DNA of 64,000 nucleotides, from the NCBI GenBank assembly GCA_018062825.1, contig JAGORL010000001.1, positions 125,432 to 189,431 on the forward strand. The letters run 5' to 3'. Position numbers and translations under genes: made by a program. The stretch comes from Patescibacteria group bacterium. Its GTDB lineage: Bacteria; Patescibacteriota; Patescibacteriia; UBA9934. Positions 26,498 to 37,752 of this stretch are shown here, one piece after another. Every line of letters starts with the position of its first letter. Positions within the stretch are counted from its first letter, which is position 1. The notes beneath the pieces were generated by a model, which was given only the letters and a program-made list of their open reading frames with translations, searched no databases and was not told where the DNA came from.

Positions 26498-27910
26498 ATG
26501 GAGGATGCGCGCACACGAATCGTTTGTACGGTAGGGCCAGCTTCGGCCTCGCTTAGCGTTTTAACCCGCATGATGAAGGCGGGAATGGATGTCGCTCGCC
26601 TCAACTTTTCGCACGGCTCCCATGATGACCATGCCAAGCTTTTGAAAACTGTCCGTGCTGCGGCTCGCAAAGCTGATCGTACGGTCGCTATTTTGCAAGA
26701 CTTACAGGGCCCAAAAATCCGTATCGGTAATTTACCCGAGGACGGCGTCATGCTACATGACGGTGAAGTAGTGCAGTTTTCCGCAGACGTTAAAGAATAC
26801 GTGAAAGGCGGTCCGTTGCCAGTTTCCTACGCTAGGCTCGCGCTTGATGTAAAGCCTGGGCACCGTATTTTACTTGATGACGGCTATTTAGAAGTTGAAG
26901 CCCTAAGGGTGAAGGGAAAGATTGTATCTGCCGTGGTGAAGGTTGGGGGAGTGCTGAAGTCTCGCAAGGGCATGAACTTACCGGATTCAATCGTTACCGC
27001 GCCTCCGGTAACGCCAAAAGATAAAGAAGATCTTATTTTTGGCGTAGCTCATGGCGTTGATTGGGTCTGTTTGTCTTTTGTTACAAAGGCGGAAACACTC
27101 AAAGAGATCCGTAAGCTCGTGAATGCTGAGGCGCGCCGCTACCATGTTCGCCCGCCACTTATCATGGCCAAGGTTGAGCGCAAAGTGGCAGTAGAGCACA
27201 TGGACGAGATCATTGAGGCAGCTGACGGCATCATGCTTGGTCGTGGCGATCTTGGTGTTGAAATTGCCCCTGAACTTGTACCGGTTGTGCAAAAAGATAT
27301 TGCCGAACATTGTCGTCGTTTAGGTAAGCCGCTTATCGTTGCTACCCACATGCTTGAGAGCATGAAGGCCAACCCGCGCGCCACGCGCGCTGAGGTGTCT
27401 GATGTTGCTAACGCAGTTTTTGATCAAGTCGATGCCGTCATGTTGTCTGCAGAATCGGCTACCGGTCGTTATCCTTCGGTGACCGTACAGATGATGGCAA
27501 ATGTCATTCGAGAGGCCGAGGCCTCACGTTTTGACGAGCTCCACGCTCACGCTGGAGAGGTCGTTAGCGGTGTTGAGTCGTTTGCGTACACCGTTGCCCT
27601 CATGGCGCACCAGGGAATCATTTGTGCTGCCGTAGTAGCATCATCCGCAATCGGGGTGGGCTCCCGCATTAATATGTTCCGCCCCAAGGTGCCTATTATT
27701 GCCGCTGTTCCAGATGCCTCGGCTGCGCGCCAGGTTCGTTTGCGCGCCGGTTGCTATCCGGTAATCATTGACGATCATGCCGCATCTTTTGTTTCGCGTT
27801 TACATACTGAGGTTCGCGCCCGCATTCCAGGATCACGTGGTAAATCGGTTGCCTACATAACGCAAGGCGCTGACAGCTCCCTTTCGCTCTCCCTTGTTCC
27901 GATTCGCTAG
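26498..27910 (+). CDS. pyk: pyruvate kinase
   Basis: RTRIVCTVGPAS, NFSHGSH, DLQGPKIRIG, MLGRGDLGVEIAPE, MLESM motifs. Confidence 0.9.
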   Translation: MEDARTRIVCTVGPASASLSVLTRMMKAGMDVARLNFSHGSHDDHAKLLKTVRAAARKADRTVAILQDLQGPKIRIGNLPEDGVMLHDGEVVQFSADVKEYVKGGPLPVSYARLALDVKPGHRILLDDGYLEVEALRVKGKIVSAVVKVGGVLKSRKGMNLPDSIVTAPPVTPKDKEDLIFGVAHGVDWVCLSFVTKAETLKEIRKLVNAEARRYHVRPPLIMAKVERKVAVEHMDEIIEAADGIMLGRGDLGVEIAPELVPVVQKDIAEHCRRLGKPLIVATHMLESMKANPRATRAEVSDVANAVFDQVDAVMLSAESATGRYPSVTVQMMANVIREAEASRFDELHAHAGEVVSGVESFAYTVALMAHQGIICAAVVASSAIGVGSRINMFRPKVPIIAAVPDASAARQVRLRAGCYPVIIDDHAASFVSRLHTEVRARIPGSRGKSVAYITQGADSSLSLSLVPIR

Positions 27911-27913
27911 CCT

Positions 27914-28405
27914 ATGCGCCCGGTATCGCTCATGGTTTTTTCGCTCTTCGCCCTTATCTCCCTTGGTATTGGCTGTGCTGCTGCTCGTGATGCTCAGGAA
28001 GTTGAGGTAAGTAATCGCGATGGTGAGGTTTCGCAAGTAGCAAGCATTGATAACGCACCTGAAGCCCCACTTGTTTCGGATATAACATTTACCGCTGCTA
28101 TTGAAGAGATGGAGGTCACATCACCGGTGGATGTGCAGGTAGAAAGCCGAAAGCTCGCAGTAACTGACTTTGCCTTTACGCCAAATGTAATAACCGTTCC
28201 GGCGGATAAACTAATTGAGATCACGATCGATGTTCTTGAAGGTGAGCATACCTTTGTTGCGGAAGAGCTCGGTATCAATGAAGAGCTAACTTTAGGTGAA
28301 ATACTAAGCTTCACAAGCCCAAGCACACCCGGTCGCTACACATTTTATTGTGGCATCGGTCCAAACCGTGGATTAGGCATGGAGGGCGTTATAGTCGTTG
28401 AGTAA
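27914..28405 (+). CDS. cupredoxin-fold (plastocyanin/azurin-like) lipoprotein, copper ligand set apparently incomplete
   Basis: lipobox LISLGIGC; C-terminal F.F.P..ITVPA...I.I......HTF......G.YTFYCGIG...GM.G.IVVE pattern; no His between the Cys and Met. Confidence 0.45.
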   Translation: MRPVSLMVFSLFALISLGIGCAAARDAQEVEVSNRDGEVSQVASIDNAPEAPLVSDITFTAAIEEMEVTSPVDVQVESRKLAVTDFAFTPNVITVPADKLIEITIDVLEGEHTFVAEELGINEELTLGEILSFTSPSTPGRYTFYCGIGPNRGLGMEGVIVVE

Positions 28406-28423
28406 CGCTGTAAAAAAGACAAA

Positions 28424-28444
28424 GCCCGACGCATTGCGTCGGGC
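28424..28444 (-). terminator. hairpin GCCCGACGC-aat-GCGTCGGGC with A-run on + strand (T-run on -); terminates the minus-strand small gene
   Basis: perfect 9-bp stem, TAAAAAAGA immediately 5' on + strand. Confidence 0.6.
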
Positions 28445-28452
28445 CGAGGGGC

Positions 28453-28653
28453 CTAGCGGCGGCCACGAGGAGGGTGGCTCTCGATGATCTCACCGAGTGC
28501 GTCGAAGTAGCAGTCATCATGAACCGGCTTGTCGTCGATCAGGTGACCGCTCTCACCGCTACCGGTAATCGGCAGGTTGCACTGCTCGCACTGCTGAGGC
28601 TCTGCGGGCGCAAGAACTCCGGCGGGCGTTGAAAGGAACGTACGGACATTCAT
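28453..28653 (-). CDS. small (66 aa) Cys/His-containing hypothetical protein in a GC-rich patch
   Basis: ATG at 28653 preceded by GGAGG + 5 nt; CEQC...HDDC; own terminator; local GC clearly above flanks. Confidence 0.35.
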   Translation of the reverse strand: MNVRTFLSTPAGVLAPAEPQQCEQCNLPITGSGESGHLIDDKPVHDDCYFDALGEIIESHPPRGRR

Positions 28654-28712
28654 TGATGCCTCCAGGGTGAAGGTAGGGTAGCAGTAGCAGTAGCGCCTAG
28701 CAAGGTAAAACA

Positions 28713-28736
28713 AAACAACGCCGTGAGGCGTTGTTT
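28713..28736 (-). terminator. terminator hairpin, member 1 of a repeated hairpin family (AAACAACGCC-gtga-GGCGTTGTTT)
   Basis: 10-bp perfect stem directly 3' of the lectin-like gene stop, followed on minus strand by TTTTGTTTTACC. Confidence 0.7.
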
Positions 28737-28742
28737 GAGTTA

Positions 28743-30734
28743 CTAGCGAGCGAACTTCTTAAACAGCGTAACATCGATATCCATAACAAGGTCAGCCCAA
28801 TCGGCGCCAAAACGTTCCTGTGCCGCTTCCTCGCTGGTAATGTACTCAAGCATCGGTCCGGCGGATCCGGTAATGACATGGAATACCTCAGGTTTGCTTT
28901 GTATCTTTACGAGCGATCCAGGCTTTGGAAGCGCAGGCGAGCCCATGGGGATAGTGGCTAGGGTAGCGTCGGTTACCGTATGAACTGCATCAAAATCAGC
29001 AAACCACGTGAAGTAAATGGCGGATGTCATGAACGGTCGGCGAGTGCCGTTCTCAAGAAGGTAGACGGCGTCAAAGTGCTCGCCCTTGATAAGAAGCATG
29101 CCTGTCACGTTCGTAATCGGTTCAATTTCACCATTCCATGGCGATGGCCCGGTGAGCTCCGTTGTTTGCTCGGCTTCCTCATCAACCACCTCTTCATCGA
29201 TAATAGTCTCTTCTGGGCAGTTAGGTGCAGTGATTGAGGCAGTTGCTGAGAGCGTTACTCGAGTGCCCGAGCTGTTGCGAAGAAGAGCGTAGGCAGTTAC
29301 CGACCCGTTCTGCTCTTGAAACGTCCACGGCACAGTTACTGAACCGTCCGTGAGAGAACTCCAGGTACCGCTTGAAAATAATGCATCATGAGCAAGCGTG
29401 TATTCGGTCGCTCCAGGGGCGCTAATGGTCACCATGCCACTTGGGGCAGCGCCTGTACACGAGGTAGCTAAATCAGTAATTCCCATCGTCGCGCCTGTGA
29501 TTGGCGTGATGATCGTTGAGGAAGACGATCGTTCAGTTGTAAAAGTCCAAGCTGTATTACTCGTAATACCAGCAAAGCTACCTCCGGTAGTTGCATCAAA
29601 GGCAGTAGCATCAATGCGTACATATACTTCAGTGCCGCCAGGAAGTGAGACTGTTGGATTGATGGTGATAGTATCGGTGCCGTCTCCTGTTACCTGGCCG
29701 CTCGTCACGTTGATGGTGGTAAGTACGGCGTCATTACTTACGCGATAGATCGTGATATTTCCCGTTTCAACATTAACTGCTTGATCAAAAGTGATAACAA
29801 GATTTTCATTGCGATCAATATCTACGGCGCTGTCGGTTGGAGAAATAGTATCGATAACAGGCGCTTCGTATGTGGTGATGGTGAATTCGTTACCTGCCGT
29901 TTCCGGAAGATCGCCGTCAGCTCCGAACTCAACAACATAGCCTTGAAGCATGGTGCCGGAGCAGGGAAGATCATTCCAAAGGCCAGTTCCGCCAGAGAGG
30001 AATTGCCCACAATCTTCACCAGCGCCGTGTTCATTTGGTTCTCCAGAGCTCCAGTTTTCATACTCGCCAGGAACGACGGTGCCGTTACCAACCCCAACCC
30101 AGAAAAGATCGCCACTTTCAGGGCCGGTAACCCAGCGCCAGTCGCCTTCAACACTGGCATCACTTGCACCCATCCAGCCCGCGCCAGCTAGGCGATCAGC
30201 GACGAAATCATTTTCTTCTTCAGAAGTGATGGTCGTAAGGTATCCCGTTGAACCGTAACGCGAAAGAAGTTCAGCTGCTGCTTCTGCCGCAACCCAATCG
30301 ATATCACCAGGAACCGAAATGTATTCGTAAAGGTGACCATTGTCTGAAAAGAAGACTTCACCAGACTCAACAAGTGAGACTTCAAGCGCATCAGCTCCGG
30401 TTGAATTGCGGGTATAGGTCAGCGTAGCAAGCGCGTCGTTTACATCCTCATAATCTCCTGAGAAGTAAATTTCAGCTCCGGTGGATGGTCCGTCAAATGT
30501 TAGGCCGGTAGTGGTACTCATAGCGAGAGTTCCGTGCGTAACAAGAAGCTTAACAGGAATTACGCCTGTACTACCGGTAATTTCAAGATCAGGGAAAGTA
30601 AAAGCCACGCCTTCGGTAGCCTCTAAGTTATCGGTACCGGTAATTTCCCACGGACTATCAGCGTGAACGGCAGGGGCATGAAAGAGTGATCCGAAAAGAA
30701 CTAAAGCAATCGCTAAGGCGAATATTTTTTTCAT
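28743..30734 (-). CDS. secreted protein with Ig-like domains and a C-type lectin-like domain
   Basis: signal peptide MKKIFALAIALVLFGSLFHAPAVHA; CTLD pattern WMGASD..VEGDWRWVTG......W...NG......ENWSSGEPN.HGAGEDCGQFL.....LWNDLPC......YVVEF. Confidence 0.6.
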   Translation of the reverse strand: MKKIFALAIALVLFGSLFHAPAVHADSPWEITGTDNLEATEGVAFTFPDLEITGSTGVIPVKLLVTHGTLAMSTTTGLTFDGPSTGAEIYFSGDYEDVNDALATLTYTRNSTGADALEVSLVESGEVFFSDNGHLYEYISVPGDIDWVAAEAAAELLSRYGSTGYLTTITSEEENDFVADRLAGAGWMGASDASVEGDWRWVTGPESGDLFWVGVGNGTVVPGEYENWSSGEPNEHGAGEDCGQFLSGGTGLWNDLPCSGTMLQGYVVEFGADGDLPETAGNEFTITTYEAPVIDTISPTDSAVDIDRNENLVITFDQAVNVETGNITIYRVSNDAVLTTINVTSGQVTGDGTDTITINPTVSLPGGTEVYVRIDATAFDATTGGSFAGITSNTAWTFTTERSSSSTIITPITGATMGITDLATSCTGAAPSGMVTISAPGATEYTLAHDALFSSGTWSSLTDGSVTVPWTFQEQNGSVTAYALLRNSSGTRVTLSATASITAPNCPEETIIDEEVVDEEAEQTTELTGPSPWNGEIEPITNVTGMLLIKGEHFDAVYLLENGTRRPFMTSAIYFTWFADFDAVHTVTDATLATIPMGSPALPKPGSLVKIQSKPEVFHVITGSAGPMLEYITSEEAAQERFGADWADLVMDIDVTLFKKFAR

Positions 30735-30800
30735 ACAATTGCAAAAAGTATAGCATGCAGCGTGAGCGATAAAGTAGTGAAATTTGAACAATATCTAGAT

Positions 30801-30833
30801 AACAAAACAACCCCGCGAAGGGTTGCTTTGTTG
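30801..30833. repeat. hairpin AACAAAACAACCCC-gcgaa-GGGGTTGCTTTGTT, variant of the repeated hairpin family
   Basis: 13/14 bp stem; shares the AACAAAACAAC arm with hairpins at 28713, 31711 and 32069. Confidence 0.5.
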
Positions 30834-30927
30834 CTTACTCCAGGGCAACTTTGCTCATAAAATAGTCCTCCGTGGTTCGAATACAATTTTCGATCCCAGT
30901 TTATGCTCGCTAGGTTTTAAAAAAAAT

Positions 30928-30956
30928 GAGACCCCAGACGCTTGGCGCGGGGTCTC
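30928..30956 (-). terminator. rho-independent terminator of HD-like gene
   Basis: GAGACCCC-n13-GGGGTCTC preceded on + strand by A8 (T8 after hairpin on minus strand). Confidence 0.7.
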
Positions 30957-31002
30957 GGTGAGTGCAGCCTTGAAGCGGCGCTCGAGCATCTGGTAGGTCT
31001 GG

Positions 31003-31617
31003 CTAGGCTCGACAGCGTCTGGCACCAGGCCAGGGATCGCTGTCCGACAGGGGGTGATCGAACCACAGTCGCGCACTGGCGACGTCGCACATGTGCGCGA
31101 CTGCCGCGAGCGGACCCATCCGGCGCTCACGCGGCGAATAGTCATTGATCTCACCCTCGGCGTACCGCAGGCCATTCTCCTGTTCGGGCGTGAGCACGAT
31201 TCCGTACTCGCTCAGCTTCTTCATGCGGAAGGCTTGGTGGTCCTCCTTCCTTTCCATGCCAACACGATGCTGGAGCTGACCATCGTTCCCCAGCTCGTAC
31301 TTCCAGGGCTTCTCGACGTCGTGGAGGTACACGACGAGCAGAAGGTCAGAGAGCGAGAAGGGGAGCGGACGCAGCGCGCTCAGAGTCTCGTACTGCACCA
31401 CAGCCAGGTTCATGATCTCCTGAACGTGGTCGTGGTAGCCACCTTGCCAGGCTTGGTGGTTATTGGTCGAGCCCTGCACCGTCTGGAACAGGGCGAGGTT
31501 GTCCTTGAGAATGCTCTGACAGGCTGAGCGGTTGGGCTCATCCATCATGCCGAGCATGCTGTCGATTGAATGGTATTCCGGCACGGTACCTCCAGTAATC
31601 ATGACATCACAATCCAT
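31003..31617 (-). CDS. hypothetical protein, possible HD-domain phosphohydrolase (GC-rich gene)
   Basis: 204 aa; GGYHDHVQEIMNL ... VVYLHDVEKP resembles H..HD...D metal-binding pattern; about 60% GC versus about 50% flanks. Confidence 0.35.
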   Translation of the reverse strand: MDCDVMITGGTVPEYHSIDSMLGMMDEPNRSACQSILKDNLALFQTVQGSTNNHQAWQGGYHDHVQEIMNLAVVQYETLSALRPLPFSLSDLLLVVYLHDVEKPWKYELGNDGQLQHRVGMERKEDHQAFRMKKLSEYGIVLTPEQENGLRYAEGEINDYSPRERRMGPLAAVAHMCDVASARLWFDHPLSDSDPWPGARRCRA

Positions 31618-31710
31618 CTTGGAAGTGATTATTAATTATAATGAGATTTTTCAAAAAAGTCAATATATCAGGGCGGCTAATTTTCATATATTGCTTGACA
31701 TATTGCAAAA

Positions 31711-31738
31711 CAAAACAACGCCCTGAAGCGTTGTTTTG
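31711..31738 (-). terminator. terminator hairpin, family member (CAAAACAACGC-cctgaa-GCGTTGTTTTG)
   Basis: 11-bp stem directly 3' of GIY-YIG gene stop on minus strand; 17-mer CAAAACAAAACAACGCC identical to the 28707 copy. Confidence 0.7.
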
Positions 31739-31785
31739 TATCGATAAGGTCCTGTGGATTGCTCTCCCACTAGGATAGTACTGGT

Positions 31786-32052
31786 CTATGTAAGACTCTC
31801 TTTGATACGTCGTAGTAACGGCACTGAGATCGAGCCACTCTTTTTTACCGAAGATTCACGAAGCCGAGCCGTCAGCTCATTTGTATAGGCCTCATAATAA
31901 ACTAGACGAAATGGTCGATAAGGCCGAGTTGAGTCAACTTCGCCCGTATTATGTTGGTGTAAACGTCTTTCCAGATCGTTCGTGGAGCCCTTGTAGAAAT
32001 AGTTACCCTCCTTCATGCTTTGTAAAACATAGAAGAACCACCATTTTTTCAT
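31786..32052 (-). CDS. GIY-YIG nuclease superfamily protein (88 aa, stand-alone)
   Basis: FFYVLQS.KEGNYFYKGSTNDLERRLHQHN matches the GIY-(10)-YIG + R + E/N core. Confidence 0.7.
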   Translation of the reverse strand: MKKWWFFYVLQSMKEGNYFYKGSTNDLERRLHQHNTGEVDSTRPYRPFRLVYYEAYTNELTARLRESSVKKSGSISVPLLRRIKESLT

Positions 32053-32068
32053 ATAGTTCTATGATAGC

Positions 32069-32094
32069 AAAATAACGCCTAAGGCGTTATTTTG
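32069..32094 (-). terminator. terminator hairpin, family member (CAAAATAACGCC-ta-GGCGTTATTTTG) downstream of tRNA-Asp
   Basis: 12-bp stem, U-rich 3' flank on minus strand. Confidence 0.6.
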
Positions 32095-32163
32095 CTTCAT
32101 CTCGGTGCGACTTTGTGACCCGTATGCTACTTGCATGGCGGGCCACGTCGGTCGCGACCGACG

Positions 32164-32240
32164 TGGCGGGACGGACGGGACTCGAACCCGCAACTTCTGC
32201 CGTGACAGGGCAGTGCTCTAACCAATTGAACTACCGTCCC
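32164..32240 (-). tRNA. tRNA-Asp (anticodon GUC), CCA encoded
   Basis: reverse complement GGGACGGTAGTTCAATTGGTTAGAGCACTGCCCTGTCACGGCAGAAGTTGCGGGTTCGAGTCCCGTCCGTCCCGCCA folds as cloverleaf: 7-bp acceptor, D-arm GTTC/GAGC, anticodon stem CTGCC/GGCAG loop CTGTCAC, T-loop TTCGAGT. Confidence 0.85.
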
Positions 32241-32357
32241 AGATAGTTATTTCGGAGCGGCGTTATAGTATCAAGTCGTAAAAACCTTGGCAAGACAAGA
32301 TATCGGCAAGAAAAACCCTCAGAAAAAGGCCGAAATTATGCTACCATGCGGCCATCT

Positions 32358-32801
32358 ATGCACGTCATTCTTTTGCGAGGTATCTCAGGATCAGGAAAAT
32401 CTACCTGGATCAAGAATAATCAGCCACAGGCCACGGTGGTTTCCGCTGATCATCTATTTATACAGCCAGACGGTTCTTATAAGTTCGATCAAACTCGCCT
32501 GGGGGAGGCGCATCAGAAGTGCTTTAAAGCATTCATTGAGGCTCTGCAAAAAGGCAGTGAGCTAATTATTGTTGATAACACCAACGTTACCGCTTGGGAG
32601 ATGAGCCCTTATATTATCGGCGCGCGAGCCTTTGGTGCCACGGTAGAGATAATGACCTTTGATTGTGATCCGGAAGTGGCGATTGCTCGCAAGGATTGGG
32701 TGCCGGCTGATAAAGTTCGTCAGATCGCTAAAATACTGGCGGTAGAAGAAAAGAATCTTCCACGCTTCATGCAGGAGATTCATAAGAAGATATCGTGTTA
32801 A
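32358..32801 (+). CDS. P-loop NTPase, polynucleotide-kinase-like (AAA_33-type) small kinase
   Basis: Walker A LLRGISGSGKST at N-terminus, Walker B-like IIVDNTN; 147 aa. Confidence 0.55.
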   Translation: MHVILLRGISGSGKSTWIKNNQPQATVVSADHLFIQPDGSYKFDQTRLGEAHQKCFKAFIEALQKGSELIIVDNTNVTAWEMSPYIIGARAFGATVEIMTFDCDPEVAIARKDWVPADKVRQIAKILAVEEKNLPRFMQEIHKKISC

Positions 32802-32810
32802 ATAAAAAAC

Positions 32811-32846
32811 CGCCCGTCCGTCCGTGAAGACTTTGGGGCGGTGACG
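32811..32846 (-). terminator. GC-rich hairpin + T7 ending the minus-strand GC-rich operon; contains 11-mer CCCGTCCGTCC also present in tRNA-Asp 3' end
   Basis: ACCGCCC-n20-GGGCGGT with AAAAAA 5' on + strand. Confidence 0.5.
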
Positions 32847-32907
32847 GTTGGGCAAGGGACACCTCCTAAGGCCGGGCCTTGGATTGAGTTTTGTCGATGT
32901 ATCGTGA

Positions 32908-33279
32908 TCAGTTCGCGCGTGCCTCGAGAACCTGGATGAGCTCCGGGCGGGAGCTGAGGCTCGTGAGGTACAGGCGTTCGTCGGTCTGCACCACGTATCC
33001 CCAGAGCAGGGACTCGTGAACGACCGGATTCGCATGCTGGATGCTCTCCCAGCCTTCGAGGGTTTCGATGCGGCTGAGGCCTCGGAGTGGCTCGATCAGT
33101 CCACCGTAGTAGACCTGATCCAGGCACACGCTGGAGAAGAACCCCAGCATGATGCCGATGAGAAGGAAGAACGTCGCAACGTCCTTATCCTCGGTGCGGG
33201 TGCGGGTAGCGATGCGGGAGATGAGGCTGGACATGGTGTCCTCCTGCGGGGTGGGAACGGGGAAGGAGCGTAGGTACAA
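32908..33279 (-). CDS. small hypothetical membrane protein (GC-rich segment)
   Basis: one TM helix FFLLIGIMLGFFSSV; last gene of the GC-rich minus-strand string. Confidence 0.35.
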   Translation of the reverse strand: MYLRSFPVPTPQEDTMSSLISRIATRTRTEDKDVATFFLLIGIMLGFFSSVCLDQVYYGGLIEPLRGLSRIETLEGWESIQHANPVVHESLLWGYVVQTDERLYLTSLSSRPELIQVLEARAN

Positions 33280-33361
33280 GAGTAATCATAGCAAATTTGA
33301 GCCATTTTGTCAATCAAAAACCCCACGTCATCTTGCGATGCGTGGGGGACGTTTTAGCCTG

Positions 33362-33724
33362 CTAGAGGCTGAAGATACGCTCGAACTCATCGATGCCCAC
33401 CGGCTTCGAGACCGCGTGAGCGTTCAACCGCTGCAGCTCTCGATAGTCAGCATGGTGGACGTCGCCCGAGTTCGCGATGAACAAGGGCGAAGGGTTGAGG
33501 CTCTGCGTAATCCGGTAGATATCAAGGGCGGTTGCGCCCGGGAAGTTGATGTCGCACACGACCACATCGAAGTGCTCGCTGCGCAAGAGGCGCATGGCTT
33601 CCACGCCCTCCGTCGTGTGCACGACGTTCAGGCGCTTGCCTAGTCGCGCGAAGATTCGAGGGAAGAGTTGTACGTAGACGGTGCCGAGTGCGGCATCATC
33701 TTCCACGATCAGCATCTTCTGCAT
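33362..33724 (-). CDS. stand-alone response-regulator receiver (CheY-like) protein, copy 1
   Basis: MLIVEDD...FDVVVCDINFPG...SKP receiver motifs; no output domain. Confidence 0.6.
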   Translation of the reverse strand: MQKMLIVEDDAALGTVYVQLFPRIFARLGKRLNVVHTTEGVEAMRLLRSEHFDVVVCDINFPGATALDIYRITQSLNPSPLFIANSGDVHHADYRELQRLNAHAVSKPVGIDEFERIFSL

Positions 33725-33825
33725 GCCTGAAAGCCTATCCACGAAACCTCCGGTGAGAAAGGAAAAGGGACCAGAGGTCATTGCTGACTTGGTCCCCACG
33801 TTTGCCGTCAGGTCGAGCCTGGCAG

Positions 33826-35151
33826 CTACTTGTTGTCGGTGTCCGCTTCGGTGCGGACCGGTTCGAAGTTGCCGCCTTCGTCGACGGTGATCGTCGGCTC
33901 GACGTCTTCGATGAACTCGGCGAACTGCGGCGGTTTCGGGCTGCACGTGGGCTGCCCGTCACCGTTCGTCTGACCCAGGCCCCAGCACCGAGCGATCGCG
34001 CCCGACGTGGAGGGGAGGGTCGTGTAGGAGCCACCACTGACGACGATCACCTCCTTGAGGTTGATCGTCACGCCGTCGCCATCGCCAGCGACGAGCACGT
34101 GCCCACCGTTGTCACCCGCCGGACCCTTGCGCAGGTCCGGGGCGCAGACCTCCCACCTCTCGTAGTGAGAGAGGTTGGGCCAGTCGAGCTGCACGCTTTC
34201 GAGGGCGCGCTTCTCGTACTCGATGATCGTGCACTTCTGAGCCACGCCCTCGACCTCGACGGTCGCGAGCACGGTGTCGCCGGAGACGGCCACGTAGTAC
34301 TCGTGGCTCACGCTGCTCTCTCCGGGATCCGGCACGGTGGCCGGCACCACCGCGACCGGCTCGGAGCCGATCGTGGCGTTGTCACCACCGGTCGTGAGTG
34401 CGTACAGCCCGATCCCGCCGCCCGTGAAGGCGACGAACCCGAGCACACACACGAGGACCACGGCCATGACGGCCACAGCCCCGATCAGCGGTCGGTGGTT
34501 GCTCGACGCCCGGGCGACGGGGATGTCATCCTCGTCATCCGGCTCGTACTGCACCTCGGCCACCATGGGCGGCTTGGTGTCCCCGAACCACGCTCGATCG
34601 TCGACGTCGGTCGGCCCCGGCGTATTCACGGGGGGCGGCGGCGCTGCCGTCGGCTGAGGCGGCTTCAGGGAGAGCGGCGGGGGCGGGGCATCGGAAGGGG
34701 CGTCGTCCGCCTCCTCCTCCGCTCGCCTGGCCATCTCTTCCTTGGTGAACACGCCGGTTCCATCGCTCGGGTCCGGCGGGGGGAAGACCGGCTGCCTGCT
34801 GATCGTTCCCCCACGCGCACTCGGTCGCGGCGCAGGGCGCGGGTTCGGTCCCGCCCTGAGGGACTCGGGACCGACGCTCGTCGCCGGGAAGGCGACCCGC
34901 GTGCTGGATCCGCGCTCGGTGCTCGGCCCGGGGAGATCCCCGAGCGACTCGTCGAGCATGTCACCACCGACCGGTTCGAGATCTTGTCCCGACAGGTCGA
35001 TGATGGGCTCGTGAGCCCTGCTGCTCGGAACCGTCGCGACCGGAGCGGGGCGAACGGCGGGCGTGGGACGCCCCTCGTCGCTGCTCCTGTCGGCCTCGTC
35101 ACTCATGTCGTCGTCCATCGGACGACCGTCCTGTTCGTCTCCGCCCATCAT
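33826..35151 (-). CDS. single-pass membrane protein, long Pro/Asp-rich cytoplasmic N-region + 4-Cys extracytoplasmic domain (cassette copy 1)
   Basis: RBS GGAGG-5nt-ATGATG at 35151; TM helix LIGAVAVMAVVLVCVLGFVAF; C-domain ...CTIIEYEK...LDWPN.S..ERWEVC..DL......G..L.......I.L.EVI...G.YT.L.ST.GA.ARCWG.GQ.NGDGQP.C.PKP shared with the copy at 35768. Confidence 0.5.
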   Translation of the reverse strand: MMGGDEQDGRPMDDDMSDEADRSSDEGRPTPAVRPAPVATVPSSRAHEPIIDLSGQDLEPVGGDMLDESLGDLPGPSTERGSSTRVAFPATSVGPESLRAGPNPRPAPRPSARGGTISRQPVFPPPDPSDGTGVFTKEEMARRAEEEADDAPSDAPPPPLSLKPPQPTAAPPPPVNTPGPTDVDDRAWFGDTKPPMVAEVQYEPDDEDDIPVARASSNHRPLIGAVAVMAVVLVCVLGFVAFTGGGIGLYALTTGGDNATIGSEPVAVVPATVPDPGESSVSHEYYVAVSGDTVLATVEVEGVAQKCTIIEYEKRALESVQLDWPNLSHYERWEVCAPDLRKGPAGDNGGHVLVAGDGDGVTINLKEVIVVSGGSYTTLPSTSGAIARCWGLGQTNGDGQPTCSPKPPQFAEFIEDVEPTITVDEGGNFEPVRTEADTDNK

Positions 35152-35314
35152 GAGGGCCTCCAGTGCTGGTGGAAGGTGCATGTCACGAACAAAGATGCCC
35201 AAGGAGGGCAAGATCGTCGTCGACCGCGAACTATAGCCAAAAATAAGAAAAACGTCAAGCAAAGGCAGAAAAGAAACACCCGCCACATTCCGGTAAGGGA
35301 TGGGCGGGTACGTG

Positions 35315-35683
35315 CTAGGTAAGTCCGAAGGCCGCGGCAAGTGCCTGGGGGCCATACGGTTTATAGAGGACCGTGACCCCGCGCTCCTTGAGCGTGGTCA
35401 CGTCGGCATGATTGGGATTGCCCGTATTGGCTACGAAGAGCGCTTGGGGCGAGGCTTGTCCCACAAGGTCATGCACCTCGACCGAATTCCCGTGAGGAAA
35501 CTCGATGTCAGACAAGACGTAGTCGAACTTCTTGGTCATGATCGCCTTCCTGGCCTCGTGGCCGTCGGCAGCGATCGTGATGACGGTCGTGTGACCGGCA
35601 TTTGCGAACAGTCGAGCGCAGGTGCGCTGAGCCGCCCGCTGCAAGAGATCGTTATCCTCCACGATCAGGACAAAGTATTCCAC
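35315..35683 (-). CDS. stand-alone response-regulator receiver (CheY-like) protein, copy 2 (GTG start)
   Basis: VLIVEDND...FDYVLSDIEFP...YKP; RBS GGAGA upstream. Confidence 0.65.
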   Translation of the reverse strand: MEYFVLIVEDNDLLQRAAQRTCARLFANAGHTTVITIAADGHEARKAIMTKKFDYVLSDIEFPHGNSVEVHDLVGQASPQALFVANTGNPNHADVTTLKERGVTVLYKPYGPQALAAAFGLT

Positions 35684-35767
35684 ACCACTCTCCTATAAAA
35701 GATGAGAGGGGACCGACGCACAGCATGGCTGATTGTCGATCCCCTCGAGGGTTGCTGCGAAGTACTG

Positions 35768-36412
35768 CTACTTCGCGGCGGCGTTCTGGGCGACCACGTT
35801 GGCGGGCGCGGCGGGCTTCGGCGTGCAGGCGGGCTGCCCGTCACCGTTGACCTGGCCAGCACCCCAGCAGCGCGCGAGCGCTCCGGGGGTGGAGACGAGG
35901 GCGGTATAGTCGCCGGTGGTCGTGATGACCTCCGACAACTTGATCCGCTTCCCGCCGACCGTGAGCACCATCGCGCCGTGGGCATCGGCGGCCTCCTTCT
36001 TCAGGTCGGTGCCGCAGATCTCCCACCGCTCCTTGGAGCTCTTGTTCGGCCAGGTCAGGTCGACGCCCTCGATCAGGTCCTTCTCGAAGGTCACGATGGC
36101 ACACAGGTGATCCTGGCGCTTGATCGTGACCGGGGCGAGGCGGACGTCGTCGTTGACGGCGACCGTGATCGGACCGGGGGTGATGGTCACCGCGAGCGGC
36201 GTCTCGCCGGGGTCGCTGGTCTCCTCGGCCACCACCACGGTCGGCTGGTTGCCGACGGCGGGGGTGCGCGACATGTAGCCGACGCCGATCATGAGGATGA
36301 CCATGAGCACGCCGAGAAAACCGGCGATCATGAGGGGGTTGTAGCCCCCTTGGTCGTTCTTGACCTCGCTCGTGTGGGTGGTGGTCTCGGTCGTGATGGA
36401 CGGCTCGGACAT
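35768..36412 (-). CDS. single-pass membrane protein with the same 4-Cys extracytoplasmic domain (cassette copy 2)
   Basis: RBS GGAGG-4nt-ATG at 36412; MSEPSITTE...; TM LMIAGFLGVLMVILMIGVGY; C-domain ...CAIVTFEK...LTWPNKSSKERWEICGTDL...ARCWGAGQVNGDGQPACTPKP. Confidence 0.5.
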   Translation of the reverse strand: MSEPSITTETTTHTSEVKNDQGGYNPLMIAGFLGVLMVILMIGVGYMSRTPAVGNQPTVVVAEETSDPGETPLAVTITPGPITVAVNDDVRLAPVTIKRQDHLCAIVTFEKDLIEGVDLTWPNKSSKERWEICGTDLKKEAADAHGAMVLTVGGKRIKLSEVITTTGDYTALVSTPGALARCWGAGQVNGDGQPACTPKPAAPANVVAQNAAAK

Positions 36413-36537
36413 GGTGCCTCCAGAGGCGTGGGAAGGTGCGTGTCGCGATAAGTGAAGCCGTTGTGGCCTACCGATCGCTGACCAACTATAATAGCAGAAA
36501 AACCCTGTTTCGTCAAGGTTGCTGATTGCAAGAACAA

Positions 36538-36568
36538 ACAAAAACACCGCTAATTTTAGCGGTGTTTT
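36538..36568 (-). terminator. rho-independent terminator downstream of rplT (possibly bidirectional)
   Basis: AAAAACACCGCTAA-ttt-TAGCGGTGTTTTT perfect 13-bp stem flanked by A/T runs. Confidence 0.8.
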
Positions 36569-36576
36569 TGATCTGC

Positions 36577-36921
36577 TTACTTAGCAGACTCAACGATCTT
36601 TTTGAAGATTGCTGGCTGATGTTCTGCAATCTGGGCCAAAACCTTACGATCCAAGCTGATCTTTGCCTTCTTAAGGTTGGCAATGAAAGCGGAGTAGGTG
36701 GTGCCAAGTTCACGCACAGCGGCGTTGATCTTAAGGGTCCAGAGGTTGCGGAAGGTGCGCTTCTTAGCACGGCGGTCGCGGAAAGCGTAAACACCGGCTT
36801 TAAGCATAGCTGGGCGAGCAAGGCGGATCTTGCTCTTTCGGCCCCAGCGGTAGCCTTTCACGCGCTTCAAGAGGTTCTTGCGGCGCTTTGTATGTTGTGT
36901 ACCGCGTTTGACGCGTGGCAT
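36577..36921 (-). CDS. rplT: 50S ribosomal protein L20
   Basis: MPRVKRGTQHTKRRKNLLKRVKGYRWGRK... canonical L20. Confidence 0.9.
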   Translation of the reverse strand: MPRVKRGTQHTKRRKNLLKRVKGYRWGRKSKIRLARPAMLKAGVYAFRDRRAKKRTFRNLWTLKINAAVRELGTTYSAFIANLKKAKISLDRKVLAQIAEHQPAIFKKIVESAK

Positions 36922-36924
36922 AGC

Positions 36925-37122
36925 TTAGGAGGAATACGGCAAAAGTGCCTTAACAGTCTTCACGAAACGATCAGAAACAGTGATATCAGTACGCTTGTTG
37001 CGGGTGGTATTTCCACTCTCACGAGAGTTGAAATGATCCTGACCGGCCTTGCGCTTGGTCACCTTACCAGACTTCGTGATTTTAACACGCTTGGCAAGGG
37101 CCTTATAGGTTTTCATGGCCAT
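36925..37122 (-). CDS. rpmI: 50S ribosomal protein L35
   Basis: MAMKTYKALAKRVKITKSGKVTKRKAGQDH... L35 pattern; in infC-rpmI-rplT order. Confidence 0.8.
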   Translation of the reverse strand: MAMKTYKALAKRVKITKSGKVTKRKAGQDHFNSRESGNTTRNKRTDITVSDRFVKTVKALLPYSS

Positions 37123-37194
37123 AATTTGCGAATAAAAAGACGGCGGTATTGTACGGGAACCCACCTGTTACGTCAAGCGGGAAACGGGGATTCT

Positions 37195-37752
37195 TTAGGA
37201 TGCCCGGGCAATGATCATGTTAAAGCGACCATTCTGACCCTTAAACGGCGACTCAATCTTGAGTGGATAATGCGTCTGCAAACGGGTGATATAGGTATCG
37301 GTAACCTGCTTCGCAAGGTCAACGTGAGCACGCTCACGACCACGCAAGATCATTTCAATACGGATTTTATCCCCCTGTTCAAGGAATTTCTTACCTTGAT
37401 CAACGCGGATATTAAGGTCGCCCTCGCCAATACGTACAGAAAGACGAATACCCTTAACCTCAACCTCCTTGCTCTGAGCGCGCTGTTTGCGTGCTTCCTT
37501 CTCCTTTTGGTACTTGAACTGACTAAAATCACCCAAGCGGCAAACTGGTGGGTTAGCCTTTGGTGAAACCTCAATAAGATCAAGGCTGCGCTCCTGAGCT
37601 ATCGCTAGCGCCTTCTCAATGGTGAGAACACCAATGATGGCATCATTTTCATCGATCACGCGCACTTCAGGTGCATCGATCTTATCGTTGAAGCGATATT
37701 CTTGTGGACTGAATTTCGGTTTCTGAAACCGACGGTGACGGTGTATGCGCAT
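37195..37752 (-). CDS. infC: translation initiation factor IF-3
   Basis: APEVRVIDENDAIIGVLTIEKALAIAQERSLDLIEVSPKANPPVCRLGDF...IRLSVRIGEGDLNIRV...; no SD upstream, as is typical for infC. Confidence 0.85.
   Translation of the reverse strand: MRIHRHRRFQKPKFSPQEYRFNDKIDAPEVRVIDENDAIIGVLTIEKALAIAQERSLDLIEVSPKANPPVCRLGDFSQFKYQKEKEARKQRAQSKEVEVKGIRLSVRIGEGDLNIRVDQGKKFLEQGDKIRIEMILRGRERAHVDLAKQVTDTYITRLQTHYPLKIESPFKGQNGRFNMIIARAS

What the first reader, a model, noticed from the sequence alone, without database searches (positions are those of the whole stretch)
28406..36570. Mosaic accessory region around tRNA-Asp between conserved core genes, with sharply GC-elevated segments
The core order pyk - cupredoxin-like gene | ... 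| rplT-rpmI-infC is interrupted by about 8 kb of non-housekeeping genes. These are a small Cys protein, a C-type-lectin-like secreted protein, an HD-like protein, a stand-alone GIY-YIG nuclease, tRNA-Asp(GUC), a P-loop polynucleotide-kinase-like protein and a duplicated receiver/membrane cassette. By eye, three stretches (about 28.44-28.70 kb, 30.93-31.62 kb and 32.80-36.50 kb) are roughly 60-70% GC against about 50% for the flanking genome. Genes there use strong GGAGG RBSs. Long Arg/Pro-rich antisense ORFs appear only in these stretches. tRNA genes are classic integration targets, and nucleases and kinases are common mobile-element cargo. This looks like horizontally acquired material, possibly from a high-GC donor or host organism, accumulated at a tRNA hotspot. 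I did not find an integrase or transposase within the window.
Basis: partly seen in the sequence, partly recalled or inferred. Interest (0 to 1): 0.65.

Follow-up and report, generated by a model that had tools for sequence, protein, structure and literature searches.

The report
Persistent GC-rich gene class in CPR genome
A variable stretch around an ancestral tRNA-Asp gene in a tiny-celled (CPR) bacterium carries genes written in a different "dialect" (very GC-rich codons plus a strong ribosome-binding site that no neighbouring gene has); this dialect has been kept for a long evolutionary time, so it is not the fresh mark of a recent import.

Summary
Background GC is 0.50 (GC3 0.41-0.56). 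Seven coding sequences between pyk and rplT, plus two at 42.5-44.7 kb outside the finding, have GC 0.59-0.70 and GC3 0.69-0.94. The shift stops at gene borders.

tRNA-Asp sits between pyk and rplT in distant Uhrbacteria relatives too. There is no integrase, no tRNA-derived repeat and no room for a decayed one.

Three independent assemblies reproduce both junctions at 100% identity, so this is not a chimera.

The GC-rich cassette (two pairs of CheY-like receiver plus membrane-anchored Cys-domain protein, and a 108-aa membrane protein) is syntenic in one diverged relative. Its first gene recurs beside rplT in a second. GC3 stays at 0.87-0.98 although neighbouring host-like genes are near synonymous saturation, and most synonymous differences are G<->C.

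The membrane and coiled-coil families exist nowhere else among billions of proteins searched.

GGAGG ribosome-binding sites precede 8 of 9 GC-rich genes and 0 of 47 host-like genes. The same pairing of GGAGG with raised GC3 appears in other CPR loci.

Best reading: an old, plastic locus of self-contained gene units whose foreign-looking composition is actively maintained. Why it is maintained remains open.

The parts
26498..28405 (+). Left anchor: pyk (26498-27910) and a cupredoxin-like gene (27914-28405). Host-like composition, no Shine-Dalgarno (SD) site.
   Evidence: Pfam PK; Cupredoxin_1; GC3 0.51 and 0.41. pyk is syntenic with ftsA-ftsZ-nrdR in Uhrbacteria loci.
28453..28653 (-). 66-aa CxxC...HDDC small protein of the GC-rich class. 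GGAGG lies 5 nt before the ATG; a terminator hairpin lies at 28423-28445.
   Evidence: GC3 0.68; sequence; terminator; no family hits.
28743..30734 (-). Secreted Lectin_C + Big_5 protein (663 aa from the ATG at 30734). Host-like composition, no SD.
   Evidence: Pfam; GC3 0.45; start read from the sequence. Its C-terminal 115 aa match genes in L004 and L006.
31003..31584 (-). 'HD-like' 193-aa protein of the GC-rich class. GGAGG lies 4 nt before the GTG. Promoter-like site TTGACT-17-TATAAT at 31663-31635; terminator at about 30925-30963.
   Evidence: GC3 0.77-0.78. 608 homologues, 70-76% identical across many Parcubacteria and 69% in Kofleriaceae. Promoter. No Pfam HD hit; weak YhaM similarity.
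31786..32052 (-). Stand-alone GIY-YIG domain protein (88 aa). Host-like composition, no SD.
   Evidence: Pfam GIY-YIG 1e-12; GC3 0.44.
32164..32240 (-). tRNA-Asp(GTC). It is an ancestral resident of the pyk-rplT interval. A 20-nt perfect palindrome (32145-32164) abuts its 3' end.
   Evidence: ARAGORN; Rfam 68.6 bits. The same tRNA lies between pyk and rplT in L001-L003; in L004-L006 it lies 1-4 kb from pyk, but no rplT match was found in those loci. Palindrome.
32346..32801 (+). AAA_33 / polynucleotide-kinase-like P-loop protein (151 aa). Host-like composition, no SD.
   Evidence: Pfam AAA_33 4e-18; NCBIfam Pnkp-like; PHROG ATPase / polynucleotide kinase. 89% identical in relative A with dN/dS about 0.07.
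32908..33234 (-). 108-aa single-pass membrane protein of the GC-rich class. Promoter-like site TTGACA-17-TATGAT at 33313-33285; GGAGG 5 nt before the ATG.
   Evidence: GC3 0.83; sequence; promoter. Orthologue in relative A is 69% identical with GC3 0.87.
33362..33742 (-). RR1: single-domain CheY-like receiver of the GC-rich class. It is 126 aa from the SD-led GTG at 33742, or 120 aa from the ATG at 33724. A terminator hairpin follows at about 33318-33357.
   Evidence: Pfam Response_reg; GC3 0.79-0.80. No RR1 gene is called in relative A.
33826..35151 (-). TMCys2: 441-aa protein with a Pro-rich disordered N-terminal tail, one membrane helix, and an extracytoplasmic domain with four conserved Cys. 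GC-rich class. Promoter-like site at 35258-35230; GGAGG 5 nt before the ATG.
   Evidence: GC 0.69, GC3 0.86. 40% identical to TMCys1 over the C-terminal domain. No Pfam hit. Found as P0127 in the exhaustive search.
35315..35683 (-). RR2: single-domain CheY-like receiver (122 aa, GTG start, AGGAGAG upstream) of the GC-rich class.
   Evidence: Pfam Response_reg 6e-10; GC3 0.74. 30% identical to RR1. The receiver of relative A is only 38% identical to it.
35768..36412 (-). TMCys1: 214-aa orphan membrane-anchored Cys-domain protein of the GC-rich class. Promoter-like site TTGACG-17-TATTAT at 36516-36488; GGAGG 4 nt before the ATG.
36577..37920 (-). Right anchor: the infC-rpmI-rplT operon, with the rplT terminator at 36539-36570. 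The GC-rich cassette is co-directional with it and immediately downstream.
   Evidence: Gene calls and Pfam in L082; terminator; synteny with Uhrbacteria.
42459..44714 (+). Second patch of the same gene class, outside the finding. It holds two paralogues with signal peptide, coiled coil and a beta-rich C-terminal part: CCb1 42459-43391 and CCb2 43620-44714. Each has a GGAGG site and its own terminator.
   Evidence: GC3 0.91 and 0.85. SD sites; promoter at 42242-42270 and terminators. CCb1 has 3 hits in 5.8 billion clusters. Orthologues in relatives A and B have GC3 0.94-0.95.

Best explanation
The window comes from a Uhrbacteria-related Patescibacteria (CPR) genome (NCBI locus tags KBC55_00850-00940). 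The interval between pyk and infC-rpmI-rplT is an old, plastic locus. tRNA-Asp is an ancestral resident of it, not an integration scar.

The locus is filled with small self-contained expression units. Most have a sigma-70-like promoter and nearly all have a terminator hairpin. They fall into two compositional classes:
- Host-like units: the lectin/Big_5 secreted protein, GIY-YIG, and the AAA_33 kinase-like protein.
- A GC3-rich, GGAGG-led class: the 66-aa Cys protein, the HD-like protein, the 108-aa membrane protein, and two pairs of CheY-like receiver plus membrane-anchored Cys-domain orphan protein.

Shown:
- The GC-rich class is foreign in style: GC3, ribosome-binding site, and Arg over Lys.
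- Of the cassette, TMCys1, TMCys2 and the 108-aa gene were in place before lineages W (window) and A split, and TMCys1, together with CCb1 outside the interval, before lineage B split. They have been inherited at the same site since. RR1 is not called in A, and A's single receiver is too diverged to be placed.
- The composition of this class is at a steady state, not decaying.

Inferred: a fixation bias favouring G/C keeps these fast-evolving envelope and signalling genes GC-rich. It could be selection on the mRNA or on SD-dependent translation, or GC-biased gene conversion at recombination-prone loci. In a genome whose ordinary genes start translation without a Shine-Dalgarno (SD) site, GC-rich and therefore structured messages would need the strong GGAGG.

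Functionally, the right arm is most likely a clade-specific surface-sensing or signalling module: an extracytoplasmic Cys-stabilised domain plus a phosphorylatable single-domain receiver, with the kinase encoded elsewhere.
For: Not an artefact:
- Logan assemblies from three runs are 100% identical to the window. They span AI-2E/smpB/infC/rplT into the cassette (L082), and rplT through the whole cassette to tRNA-Asp (L083).

Ancestral tRNA and a variable gap:
- pyk ... tRNA-Asp(-) ... rplT-rpmI-infC recurs in L001-L003, with different intervening genes.

Old residence:
- Relative A (L085, about 78% nucleotide identity) has rplT-TMCys1-RR-TMCys2-108aa-AAA_33-tRNA-Asp.
- Relative B has TMCys1, with rplT-flank homology and a conserved promoter, and CCb1.
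- 4-fold distances give ((W,A),B) for both genes.

Composition is maintained:
- GC3 is 0.86-0.98 in TMCys1, TMCys2, the 108-aa gene and CCb1 in every lineage compared, while flanks are 0.45-0.57.
- 71 of 117 conserved 4-fold sites of CCb1 changed in at least one lineage, yet 87-95% remain G/C.
- Pooled W against A: 57 of 385 sites (0.148) are mixed S/W, against 0.31 expected from the host-like clock.
- GC4 is 0.87/0.90, against at most 0.81 expected even from a 100%-GC ancestor.
- Differences in host-like control genes are 70-85% S<->W.

The class is distinct:
- GGAGG at 4-6 nt precedes 8 of 9 GC-rich genes against 0 of 47 host-like genes, p=6e-9. It is conserved in relatives A and B.
- R/(R+K) is 0.68 against 0.55.
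- dN/dS is 0.35-0.67 against 0.07 for AAA_33.

Self-contained units:
- Near-consensus promoters and terminators flank most of the genes.

Generality:
- The pairing of SD with raised GC3 appears in L090, in Ryanbacteria L087, in L051, and in an orthologous secreted gene of three Uhrbacteria.
- In that Uhrbacteria gene, GC3 is 0.56-0.65 against 0.41-0.47 in core genes, although 62-71% of 4-fold sites differ.
Against: - The cause of the maintenance is not identified.
- Gene conversion should not respect coding-sequence borders, yet the spacers are only 0.49-0.57 GC. They are short and packed with signals, so this is weak evidence.
- Translational selection does not fit simply. rplT prefers T- and C-ending codons, whereas these genes use both G- and C-ending codons.
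- G<->C differences among sites that are G/C in both lineages are 30% in GC-rich genes against 10% in host-like genes (p=0.008). This may mean older allele coalescence or imported alleles, not purely in-place evolution.
- The host-like clock rests on only 129 four-fold sites, and the relatives are short contigs.
- The left arm (66-aa, lectin, HD-like, GIY-YIG) could not be traced in relatives A or B.
- The presence of an anti-SD sequence in this organism's 16S rRNA is unknown.
Confidence: 0.6

Rival explanations
1. This is a classical tRNA-targeted genomic island. DNA from a high-GC donor was integrated recently at tRNA-Asp by a site-specific recombinase and has not yet ameliorated.
For: - Composition is atypical and lies next to a tRNA.
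- The interval varies among relatives.
- In relative A the cassette abuts the 3' end of tRNA-Asp.
- The HD-like gene has a compositionally native 69%-identical homologue in a 66%-GC Kofleriaceae contig.
- Genomic islands are reported to be common in Patescibacteria (PMC12455944).
Against: - No integrase or transposase, and no tRNA-derived direct repeat.
- Spacers are at most 211 nt, so there is no room for remnants.
- tRNA-Asp is ancestral at this site.
- The cassette is shared with diverged relatives and is not relaxing.
- Spacers are host-like, and promoters are conserved between W and B.
- No donor homologues exist for TMCys or CCb.
- A second patch of the same class has no tRNA nearby.
Confidence: 0.08
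2. Recurrent allele replacement. The loci are old, but their alleles are repeatedly swapped by homologous recombination with unsampled GC-richer sister lineages of the same clade. High GC3 would then be re-imported and not maintained in place.
For: - There is an excess of G<->C differences: 30% against 10% of sites that are G/C in both lineages, p=0.008.
- dN is very high.
- The receiver between TMCys1 and TMCys2 is only 38% identical between W and A, and no RR1 gene is called in A.
- In L090, a relative whose HD-like protein is 86% identical, 7 of 8 genes have GC3 0.72-0.93.
Against: - The ((W,A),B) distances are congruent and clock-like for both CCb1 and TMCys1.
- Corrected synonymous divergence of CCb1 is not larger than that of the adjoining htrA-like gene.
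- No GC-rich source lineage carrying TMCys or CCb is present among 15 billion proteins.
- It only moves the question of why those alleles are GC-rich to another lineage.
Confidence: 0.2
3. Assembly or binning chimera: reads from a co-occurring high-GC organism were stitched into a CPR contig.
For: GC changes sharply, the source is a metagenome-assembled genome, and the products are orphan proteins.
Against: - Three independent single-run assemblies reproduce the junctions at 100% identity.
- GC switches exactly at start and stop codons, nine separate times.
- The same mosaic with homologous flanks occurs in two diverged relatives from other samples.
Confidence: 0.01
4. The high GC serves to keep long antisense or alternative-frame ORFs open, i.e. 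overlapping genes that encode Arg/Pro-rich proteins.
For: The codon-aligned antisense frame has no stop codon across TMCys1, TMCys2 and CCb1 in every lineage examined.
Against: - That frame is closed only by the sense codons TTA, CTA and TCA, so it opens automatically once GC3 exceeds about 0.85.
- Keeping it open would not require excluding all A/T-ending codons.
- CCb2 has a stop in that frame.
- The other frames are open or closed inconsistently between lineages.
Confidence: 0.02

Closest known systems
tRNA-linked integrative genomic islands (for example pathogenicity islands, ICEs or prophages inserted at tRNA 3' ends)
   Same: - Accessory genes with deviant base composition lie next to a tRNA gene, between conserved core genes.
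- Content differs between relatives.
   Different: - No integrase, no att duplication of the tRNA end, and no mobility genes.
- The tRNA is ancestral at this site.
- The deviant genes are shared by diverged relatives and are not ameliorating.
- Only coding sequences, not spacers, are deviant.
Phage 'morons' (Hendrix/Juhala: extra genes with their own promoter and terminator and deviant GC, inserted between phage genes). Cited from my own knowledge.
   Same: - Single-gene or two-gene units.
- Bracketed by a sigma-70-like promoter and an intrinsic terminator.
- Composition differs from the neighbours.
   Different: - They sit in a bacterial chromosome with no phage genes nearby.
- No relatives were found in IMG/VR or PHROGs.
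- They are long-lived and not recent additions.
Amelioration model of horizontally acquired genes (Lawrence and Ochman). Cited from my own knowledge.
   Same: Atypical GC3 and codon usage are read as a mark of foreign origin.
   Different: The predicted decay toward host composition is not seen. GC4 is 0.87-0.90 against at most 0.81 expected. Mixed S/W sites are half of the expectation. Most differences are G<->C.
SD-poor translation systems with a small SD-led gene set (Bacteroidota, where the anti-SD is occluded and a few genes such as rpsU keep strong SD sites; from my own knowledge). Also the loss of the anti-SD motif in about half of Parcubacteria (PMC9297842).
   Same: Most genes, including ribosomal-protein genes, lack an SD site, while a small set carries a strong conserved GGAGG.
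   Different: - Here the SD-led set consists of accessory envelope and signalling genes, and it coincides with strongly raised GC3.
- Whether this organism has an accessible anti-SD is unknown.
Orphan single-domain (CheY-like) response regulators of two-component systems
   Same: RR1 and RR2 match Response_reg and keep the acidic pocket, the phospho-acceptor Asp, Thr/Ser and Lys-Pro (read from the sequences).
   Different: - No histidine kinase lies in the 64-kb window.
- Each receiver is paired with a membrane protein of unknown fold that has no kinase domain.

Membership tests
tRNA-targeted integrative genomic island | Located directly beside a tRNA gene | tested here: met
   tRNA-Asp at 32164-32240 lies inside the interval.
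tRNA-targeted integrative genomic island | Integrase or recombinase gene (or its remnant) at one border | tested here: not met
   No such Pfam hit in any ORF of the interval or its surroundings. Spacers are at most 211 nt.
tRNA-targeted integrative genomic island | Direct repeat of the tRNA 3' part marking the far border (attL/attR) | tested here: not met
   The repeat search over 27500-37500 gives only 69-72% chance-level matches to the tRNA region.
tRNA-targeted integrative genomic island | Absent from the same site in close relatives | tested here: not met
   The right arm is present and syntenic in relative A. TMCys1 is present at the rplT flank in relative B. The left arm could not be tested.
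Recently transferred, ameliorating foreign gene | Codon-position GC deviates from the host | tested here: met
   GC3 0.69-0.94 against 0.41-0.56.
Recently transferred, ameliorating foreign gene | Composition relaxes toward the host at the neutral rate | tested here: not met
   Observed GC4 is 0.87/0.90 against at most 0.81 expected. Mixed sites are 0.148 against 0.31 expected. GC3 is 0.94-0.97 in relative B.
Recently transferred, ameliorating foreign gene | Homologues in a plausible donor lineage | tested here: inconclusive
   None exist for TMCys or CCb. The HD-like gene has a compositionally native homologue in Kofleriaceae, but most of its relatives are CPR, so the direction of transfer is unknown.
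Moron-like autonomous expression unit | Own promoter upstream and own intrinsic terminator downstream | tested here: met
   Consensus-level promoter matches (10-11 of 12 positions) precede HD-like, 108aa, TMCys2, TMCys1 and CCb1, but not the 66-aa gene, RR1, RR2 or CCb2. Hairpin plus T-run follows the 66-aa, HD-like, RR1, CCb1 and CCb2 genes. These are sequence matches only; transcription was not measured.
Moron-like autonomous expression unit | Resides in a phage or prophage genome | tested here: not met
   No phage genes are in the window. No IMG/VR relatives. No PHROG hits for the GC-rich genes beyond coiled-coil noise.
Two-component signalling system | Receiver domain with the phospho-acceptor Asp and conserved pocket residues | tested here: met
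   Response_reg matches at 1.8e-8 and 6.1e-10. E-D...D...T/S...K-P were read from the translations.
Two-component signalling system | Cognate histidine kinase encoded alongside | tested here: not met
   No HisKA or HATPase_c hit in any ORF scanned against Pfam. Five smaller ORFs (at 22.4-23.3 kb and 58.4-63.1 kb) were not scanned. The TMCys proteins have no kinase domain.
HD-domain phosphohydrolase (for the 'HD-like' gene) | Significant match to an HD-superfamily profile | tested here: inconclusive
   No Pfam or NCBIfam hit. The profile search against PDB gives only YhaM at E=0.15 over 64 residues. H...HD motifs are invariant in the family alignment.
Anti-phage defence island | Proteins matching known defence-system models | tested here: not met
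   PADLOC hits only the generic P-loop of AAA_33.

The most novel reading that the evidence does not exclude
CPR bacteria of this group may run two gene 'dialects' side by side.

Ordinary genes are about 45-50% GC3 and start translation without a Shine-Dalgarno site. A minority of fast-evolving envelope and signalling genes are kept, over times long enough to saturate synonymous sites, at much higher GC3 with an obligatory GGAGG.

These would form a separately translated or separately stabilised gene set. For example, they could be read only when the anti-SD is accessible, or be protected from AU-directed RNases.

If so, atypical GC here marks a functional class, not recency of transfer.
Probability: 0.3. 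Interest if true: 0.8.

Novelty: new variant of a known kind. Interest (0 to 1): 0.6.

Why it matters
**Island detection.** Deviant GC next to a tRNA is the textbook signature of a fresh genomic island, and island-finding software would call it so. Here that signature has outlived the split of three lineages. It is tied to a translation signal that ordinary genes of the organism do not use. This is a concrete natural counter-example to 'atypical composition means recent transfer'.

**A testable question.** It makes one question directly testable: what holds synonymous sites at about 90% G/C inside a 50%-GC genome? Selection on mRNA, selection on initiation, and biased gene conversion are the candidates.

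**CPR biology.** The finding singles out a handful of clade-restricted surface and signalling proteins as candidates for the host-interaction layer. These are the TMCys + receiver pairs and the coiled-coil/beta proteins.

**Translation.** Together with the reported loss of the anti-SD motif in many Parcubacteria, it points to a possibly split translation-initiation regime.

Tried and rejected
- **Chimeric assembly:** rejected. Independent assemblies agree and the mosaic is conserved in relatives.
- **Integrase or att repeats:** none found.
- **Viral origin:** no IMG/VR relatives for the HD-like, CCb1 or TMCys proteins. PHROGs gave only coiled-coil noise.
- **Defence island:** PADLOC was negative.
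- **Known RNA elements:** only the tRNA and tmRNA were found.
- **Function from structure:**
  - The CCb1 model is too poor to search (pLDDT 47.7).
  - The afdb50 library was unavailable.
- **Exact look-ups:** the 509-aa ORF and CCb1 were not on record. The ORF start was wrong for the first.
- **Antisense ORFs as real genes:** judged a compositional by-product.
- **Translational selection for optimal codons:** does not fit. rplT uses T/C endings and these genes use G/C endings.
- **Lower GC3 in the first 11 codons of GC-rich genes:** only a slight dip, 0.77 against 0.85. Not informative.
- **Literature:** no report of SD-linked GC-rich gene classes in Patescibacteria turned up.
- **Not pursued:**
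  - An integron attC-type analysis of the hairpins.
  - A diversity-generating-retroelement check of the lectin gene.
  - The single metagenome-contig scan, because protein searches of the same data had already shown only three lineages.

Full report
**What the window is**

Core genes run in this order: eno, gap, pgk, lepB, hisS, hflX, pilin-domain giant surface proteins, ftsA, ftsZ, nrdR, pyk. After the interval they continue with rplT-rpmI-infC, tmRNA, smpB, an AI-2E transporter, an HtrA-like protease, dinB, lexA and metK.

Exact protein matches identify a Patescibacteria-group metagenome-assembled genome with locus tags KBC55_00850, _00890 and _00940, on a 406-kb contig.

The nearest pyk relatives in 185,579 species genomes are Candidatus Uhrbacteria and unnamed Patescibacteria. 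They are only 45-53% identical, so no truly close reference genome exists.

**Checking the observation**

The composition claim holds.
- Outside the GC-rich genes, 300-nt windows average 0.497 GC (sd 0.030, maximum 0.580).
- Inside them they average 0.672, with a maximum of 0.743.

Per gene, host-like coding sequences have GC3 0.41-0.56. Nine genes stand apart:

| Gene | GC3 |
|---|---|
| 66-aa Cys protein | 0.68-0.69 |
| HD-like | 0.77 |
| 108-aa membrane protein | 0.83 |
| RR1 | 0.80 |
| TMCys2 | 0.86 |
| RR2 | 0.74 |
| TMCys1 | 0.94 |
| CCb1 (outside the finding) | 0.91 |
| CCb2 (outside the finding) | 0.85 |

The rise begins and ends at start and stop codons. The spacers inside the cassette are 0.52-0.57 GC and those at its two borders 0.49 and 0.56.

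The lectin/Big_5 protein, GIY-YIG, tRNA-Asp and the AAA_33 kinase-like gene are compositionally ordinary. 'HD-like' rests only on conserved H/HD motifs and a weak YhaM similarity.

**Not an assembly artefact**

Single-run Logan assemblies from SRR11088367, SRR11088486 and SRR11088391 are 100% identical to the window.
- One spans 40247 to 34678: core genes into the cassette.
- Another spans 36742 to 32208: rplT through the entire cassette to tRNA-Asp.

**The tRNA is not an integration scar**

In Uhrbacteria loci L001-L003 the order pyk, tRNA-Asp(GTC, same strand as here), rplT-rpmI-infC, smpB recurs. The gaps are 2.9-6 kb and are filled with different genes: small lipoproteins, macro-domain-like proteins, a pseudouridine synthase and Pro-rich membrane proteins. 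L004-L006 also carry tRNA-Asp 1-4 kb from pyk, but no rplT match was found in those loci.

So the tRNA and the variability of the spot are both ancestral. There is no integrase or transposase, no direct repeat derived from the tRNA, and no spacer longer than 211 nt that could hide a remnant.

The locus does rearrange.
- In relative A the tRNA is inverted with respect to AAA_33.
- In another relative (L090), tRNA-Asp is followed after 2.6 kb of unrelated small genes by the HD-like gene. The orientation is the same as here, where only GIY-YIG intervenes.

**Anatomy of the units**

Most genes of the interval read as self-contained units. Near-consensus sigma-70-like sites precede:
- the HD-like gene (TTGACT-17-TATAAT);
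- the 108-aa gene (TTGACA-17-TATGAT);
- TMCys2 (TTGACG-17-TATAGT);
- TMCys1 (TTGACG-17-TATTAT);
- CCb1 (TTGACA-17-TACTAT).

No comparable site was found before the 66-aa gene, RR1, RR2 or CCb2. Hairpin plus T-run terminators follow the genes.

Three terminators in the left arm are near-identical palindromes found nowhere else in the 64 kb.

**The ribosome-binding-site split**

GGAGG placed 4-6 nt before the start codon is present at 8 of the 9 GC-rich genes; RR2 has AGGAGAG. It is present at none of 47 host-like genes, including rplT and rpmI (Fisher p=6e-9).

In the whole window, every GGAGG that is correctly spaced before a long ORF is either the start of a GC-rich gene or an internal or spurious site.

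**Age of the GC-rich genes**

Relative A (L085/L092, other samples, about 78% nucleotide identity) has the order rplT, TMCys1, a receiver, TMCys2, the 108-aa gene, AAA_33, tRNA-Asp. No RR1 gene is called there.

Relative B (JGI 3300032144, about 70% identity) has TMCys1 with the rplT flank and the same promoter, and also CCb1.

In both relatives the genes keep GC3 0.87-0.98, GGAGG, and flanks of 0.45-0.57 GC. Distances at 4-fold sites give ((W,A),B) for both CCb1 and TMCys1, with W-B roughly equal to A-B, as vertical descent predicts.

**The composition is maintained, not decaying**

Between W and A, host-like neighbours (AAA_33, the htrA C-terminus, the rplT C-terminus) behave as follows:
- They differ at 48 of 129 four-fold sites.
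- 37 of those differences are S/W changes.
- GC4 is 0.44/0.47.

GC-rich genes differ at 154 of 385 four-fold sites:
- Only 57 of those are S/W changes and 94 are G<->C.
- GC4 is 0.87/0.90.

A two-state relaxation model was calibrated on the host-like sites.
- It predicts that even an ancestor with 100% G/C at these sites would now be at 0.81, with 31% mixed sites.
- The observed values are 0.87-0.90 (SE 0.017) and 14.8%.

With three taxa, 71 of 117 CCb1 four-fold sites have changed somewhere, yet 87-95% are still G/C. Polarised changes are almost all C>G or G>C. This is a fixation bias toward G/C, not a relic.

The same genes evolve fast as proteins: dN/dS is 0.35-0.67, against 0.07 for AAA_33. 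They use Arg over Lys, with R/(R+K) 0.68 against 0.55.

**Origin**

The TMCys family has 3 hits among 5.8 billion clusters. It has 4 among 1.84 billion representatives read exhaustively by HMMER, all from this clade. CCb1 has 3 hits.

There are no relatives in IMG/VR, and PHROGs or PADLOC give nothing beyond coiled-coil noise.

The HD-like gene is different.
- It has 608 homologues, 70-76% identical across many Parcubacteria lineages whose core proteins are far more diverged.
- A 69%-identical copy sits, compositionally native (GC3 0.84 among neighbours at 0.81-0.90), between Ser/Thr kinases and an OEP gene in a 66%-GC Kofleriaceae contig.

That gene has clearly moved horizontally. A high-GC source is plausible for it, though the direction is unknown.

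**Generality**

The SD/GC3 link is not peculiar to this window.

| Locus | SD-led genes (GC3) | Other genes of the locus (GC3) |
|---|---|---|
| Ryanbacteria L087 | HD-like homologue 0.57; a 123-aa ORF 0.62; only these two carry AAAGGAGG | 0.34-0.48 |
| L051 (closest pyk relative) | 791-aa lipoprotein 0.84 | 0.44 |
| L090 | four of the six genes at GC3 0.72 or above carry a GGAGG-type site | the one host-like gene (0.56) has none |
| Uhrbacteria L001-L003 | orthologous secreted protein 0.56-0.65, in all three | 0.41-0.47 |

In the Uhrbacteria case, 62-71% of four-fold sites differ between the three genomes, so the raised GC3 is stable there too.

Tsurumaki et al. (PMC9297842) report that the anti-SD motif is undetectable in about half of Parcubacteria. 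That fits SD-less core genes and makes a conserved GGAGG minority notable.

**Function**

The two receivers match Response_reg and keep the acidic pocket, the acceptor Asp, Thr/Ser and Lys-Pro. They are single-domain, and no histidine kinase was found among the ORFs scanned against Pfam; five smaller ORFs were not scanned.

Each receiver is paired with a type-II membrane protein.
- Its ectodomain is a roughly 120-residue beta domain with four invariant Cys.
- The model has moderate confidence and no match among solved structures.

I infer a clade-specific surface-sensing or signalling pair. This is not shown.

CCb1 and CCb2 have a signal peptide, a roughly 100-residue coiled coil, and a beta-rich C-terminal half. 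The model is too weak to interpret.

**Verdict**

The 'horizontally acquired at a tRNA hotspot' reading is partly supported: foreign style, a plastic locus, and one gene with clear horizontal history. It is wrong on mechanism and timing for the main cassette.

The best-supported account is an old variable locus of self-contained units, in which a GGAGG-led, GC-rich gene class is held at its composition by a G/C-favouring fixation bias.

Three candidate causes remain open: selection on structured or stable mRNA and SD-dependent initiation, biased gene conversion at recombination-prone loci, or repeated allele import. The excess of G<->C differences (30% against 10%, p=0.008) hints at extra recombination or older alleles and remains unexplained.

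Noticed in passing
window 42459-44714 (+): A second GC-rich, GGAGG-led patch lies between the htrA-like gene and dinB-lexA. It holds two diverged paralogues with signal peptide, coiled coil and a beta-rich C-terminal half. CCb1 and its orthologues end in ...RF with alternating hydrophobic residues, which is reminiscent of an outer-membrane beta-barrel signal. That would be odd for a CPR cell. The AF2 model is too poor (pLDDT 47.7) to judge.
   Followed up: partly
window 28707-28736, 30799-30828, 31707-31736: Three near-identical palindromic terminators (AAACAACGCC-N4-GGCGTTGTTT, 80-93% identical) bracket the lectin and HD-like units. There are 5 strand-matches against 0.16 expected, and none elsewhere in the 64 kb. 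They may be scars or substrates of the rearrangements at this locus.
   Followed up: partly
window about 30856-30879 (-): A seven-codon mini-ORF (MSKVALE*) preceded by GGAGGA sits between the HD-like terminator and a second terminator upstream of the lectin promoter. It could be a leader peptide or the remnant of a lost unit.
   Followed up: no
L085 4017-4088 compared with window 32164-32345: In relative A, tRNA-Asp is inverted relative to AAA_33: its 3' end faces the gene, whereas its 5' end does in the window. The contig ends inside the tRNA. A 20-nt perfect palindrome (window 32145-32164) abuts the tRNA 3' end.
   Followed up: partly
L085 1128-1496 compared with window 35315-35683 and 33362-33742: The receiver gene between TMCys1 and TMCys2 is only 38% (against RR2) or 30% (against RR1) identical between W and relative A. 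Its flanking genes are 64% and 51% identical. No RR1 gene is called in A. The receivers therefore turn over faster than their partners.
   Followed up: partly
L001 17485-18606, L002 16041-17141, L003 19028-20101; L051 2043-4418; L087 6001-6585 and 8262-8633: In other CPR loci the few GGAGG-led genes are also the GC3-richest, and they are mostly secreted proteins. This suggests that a link between SD sites and GC3 is widespread in this part of the CPR.
   Followed up: partly
window 10603-19917 (+) and 8838-10640 (+): A 3104-aa protein (T4SS_pilin, TIG, Big_5, DUF4215, VWA domains) and a 600-aa relative have ordinary composition (GC3 0.42 and 0.41) and no SD site. Being a large surface protein is therefore not sufficient to belong to the GC-rich class.
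   Followed up: no
L081 (GCA_020054605.1, JAHZTR010699277.1, 1566 nt): A 1.6-kb contig of a highly fragmented NCBI assembly (contig number near 699,000) is 100% identical to window 26464-28029 (pyk). The same organism therefore occurs in another deposited dataset.
   Followed up: no
L097 7442-8023 (Kofleriaceae contig DATLBZ010000603.1): The HD-like family has a 69%-identical member in a 66%-GC myxobacterial contig, with native composition and no SD site, next to three Ser/Thr kinase genes and an OEP gene. RR1's best NCBIfam hit is also the receiver of a myxobacterial kinase (EspC, 4e-8).
   Followed up: partly
window 37195-37920 (-) and 37850-38261 (-): The longest infC ORF (241 aa) runs into the tmRNA gene. 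The real infC start is further in (185 aa in the Logan gene call), so the mechanical ORF is over-extended.
   Followed up: no
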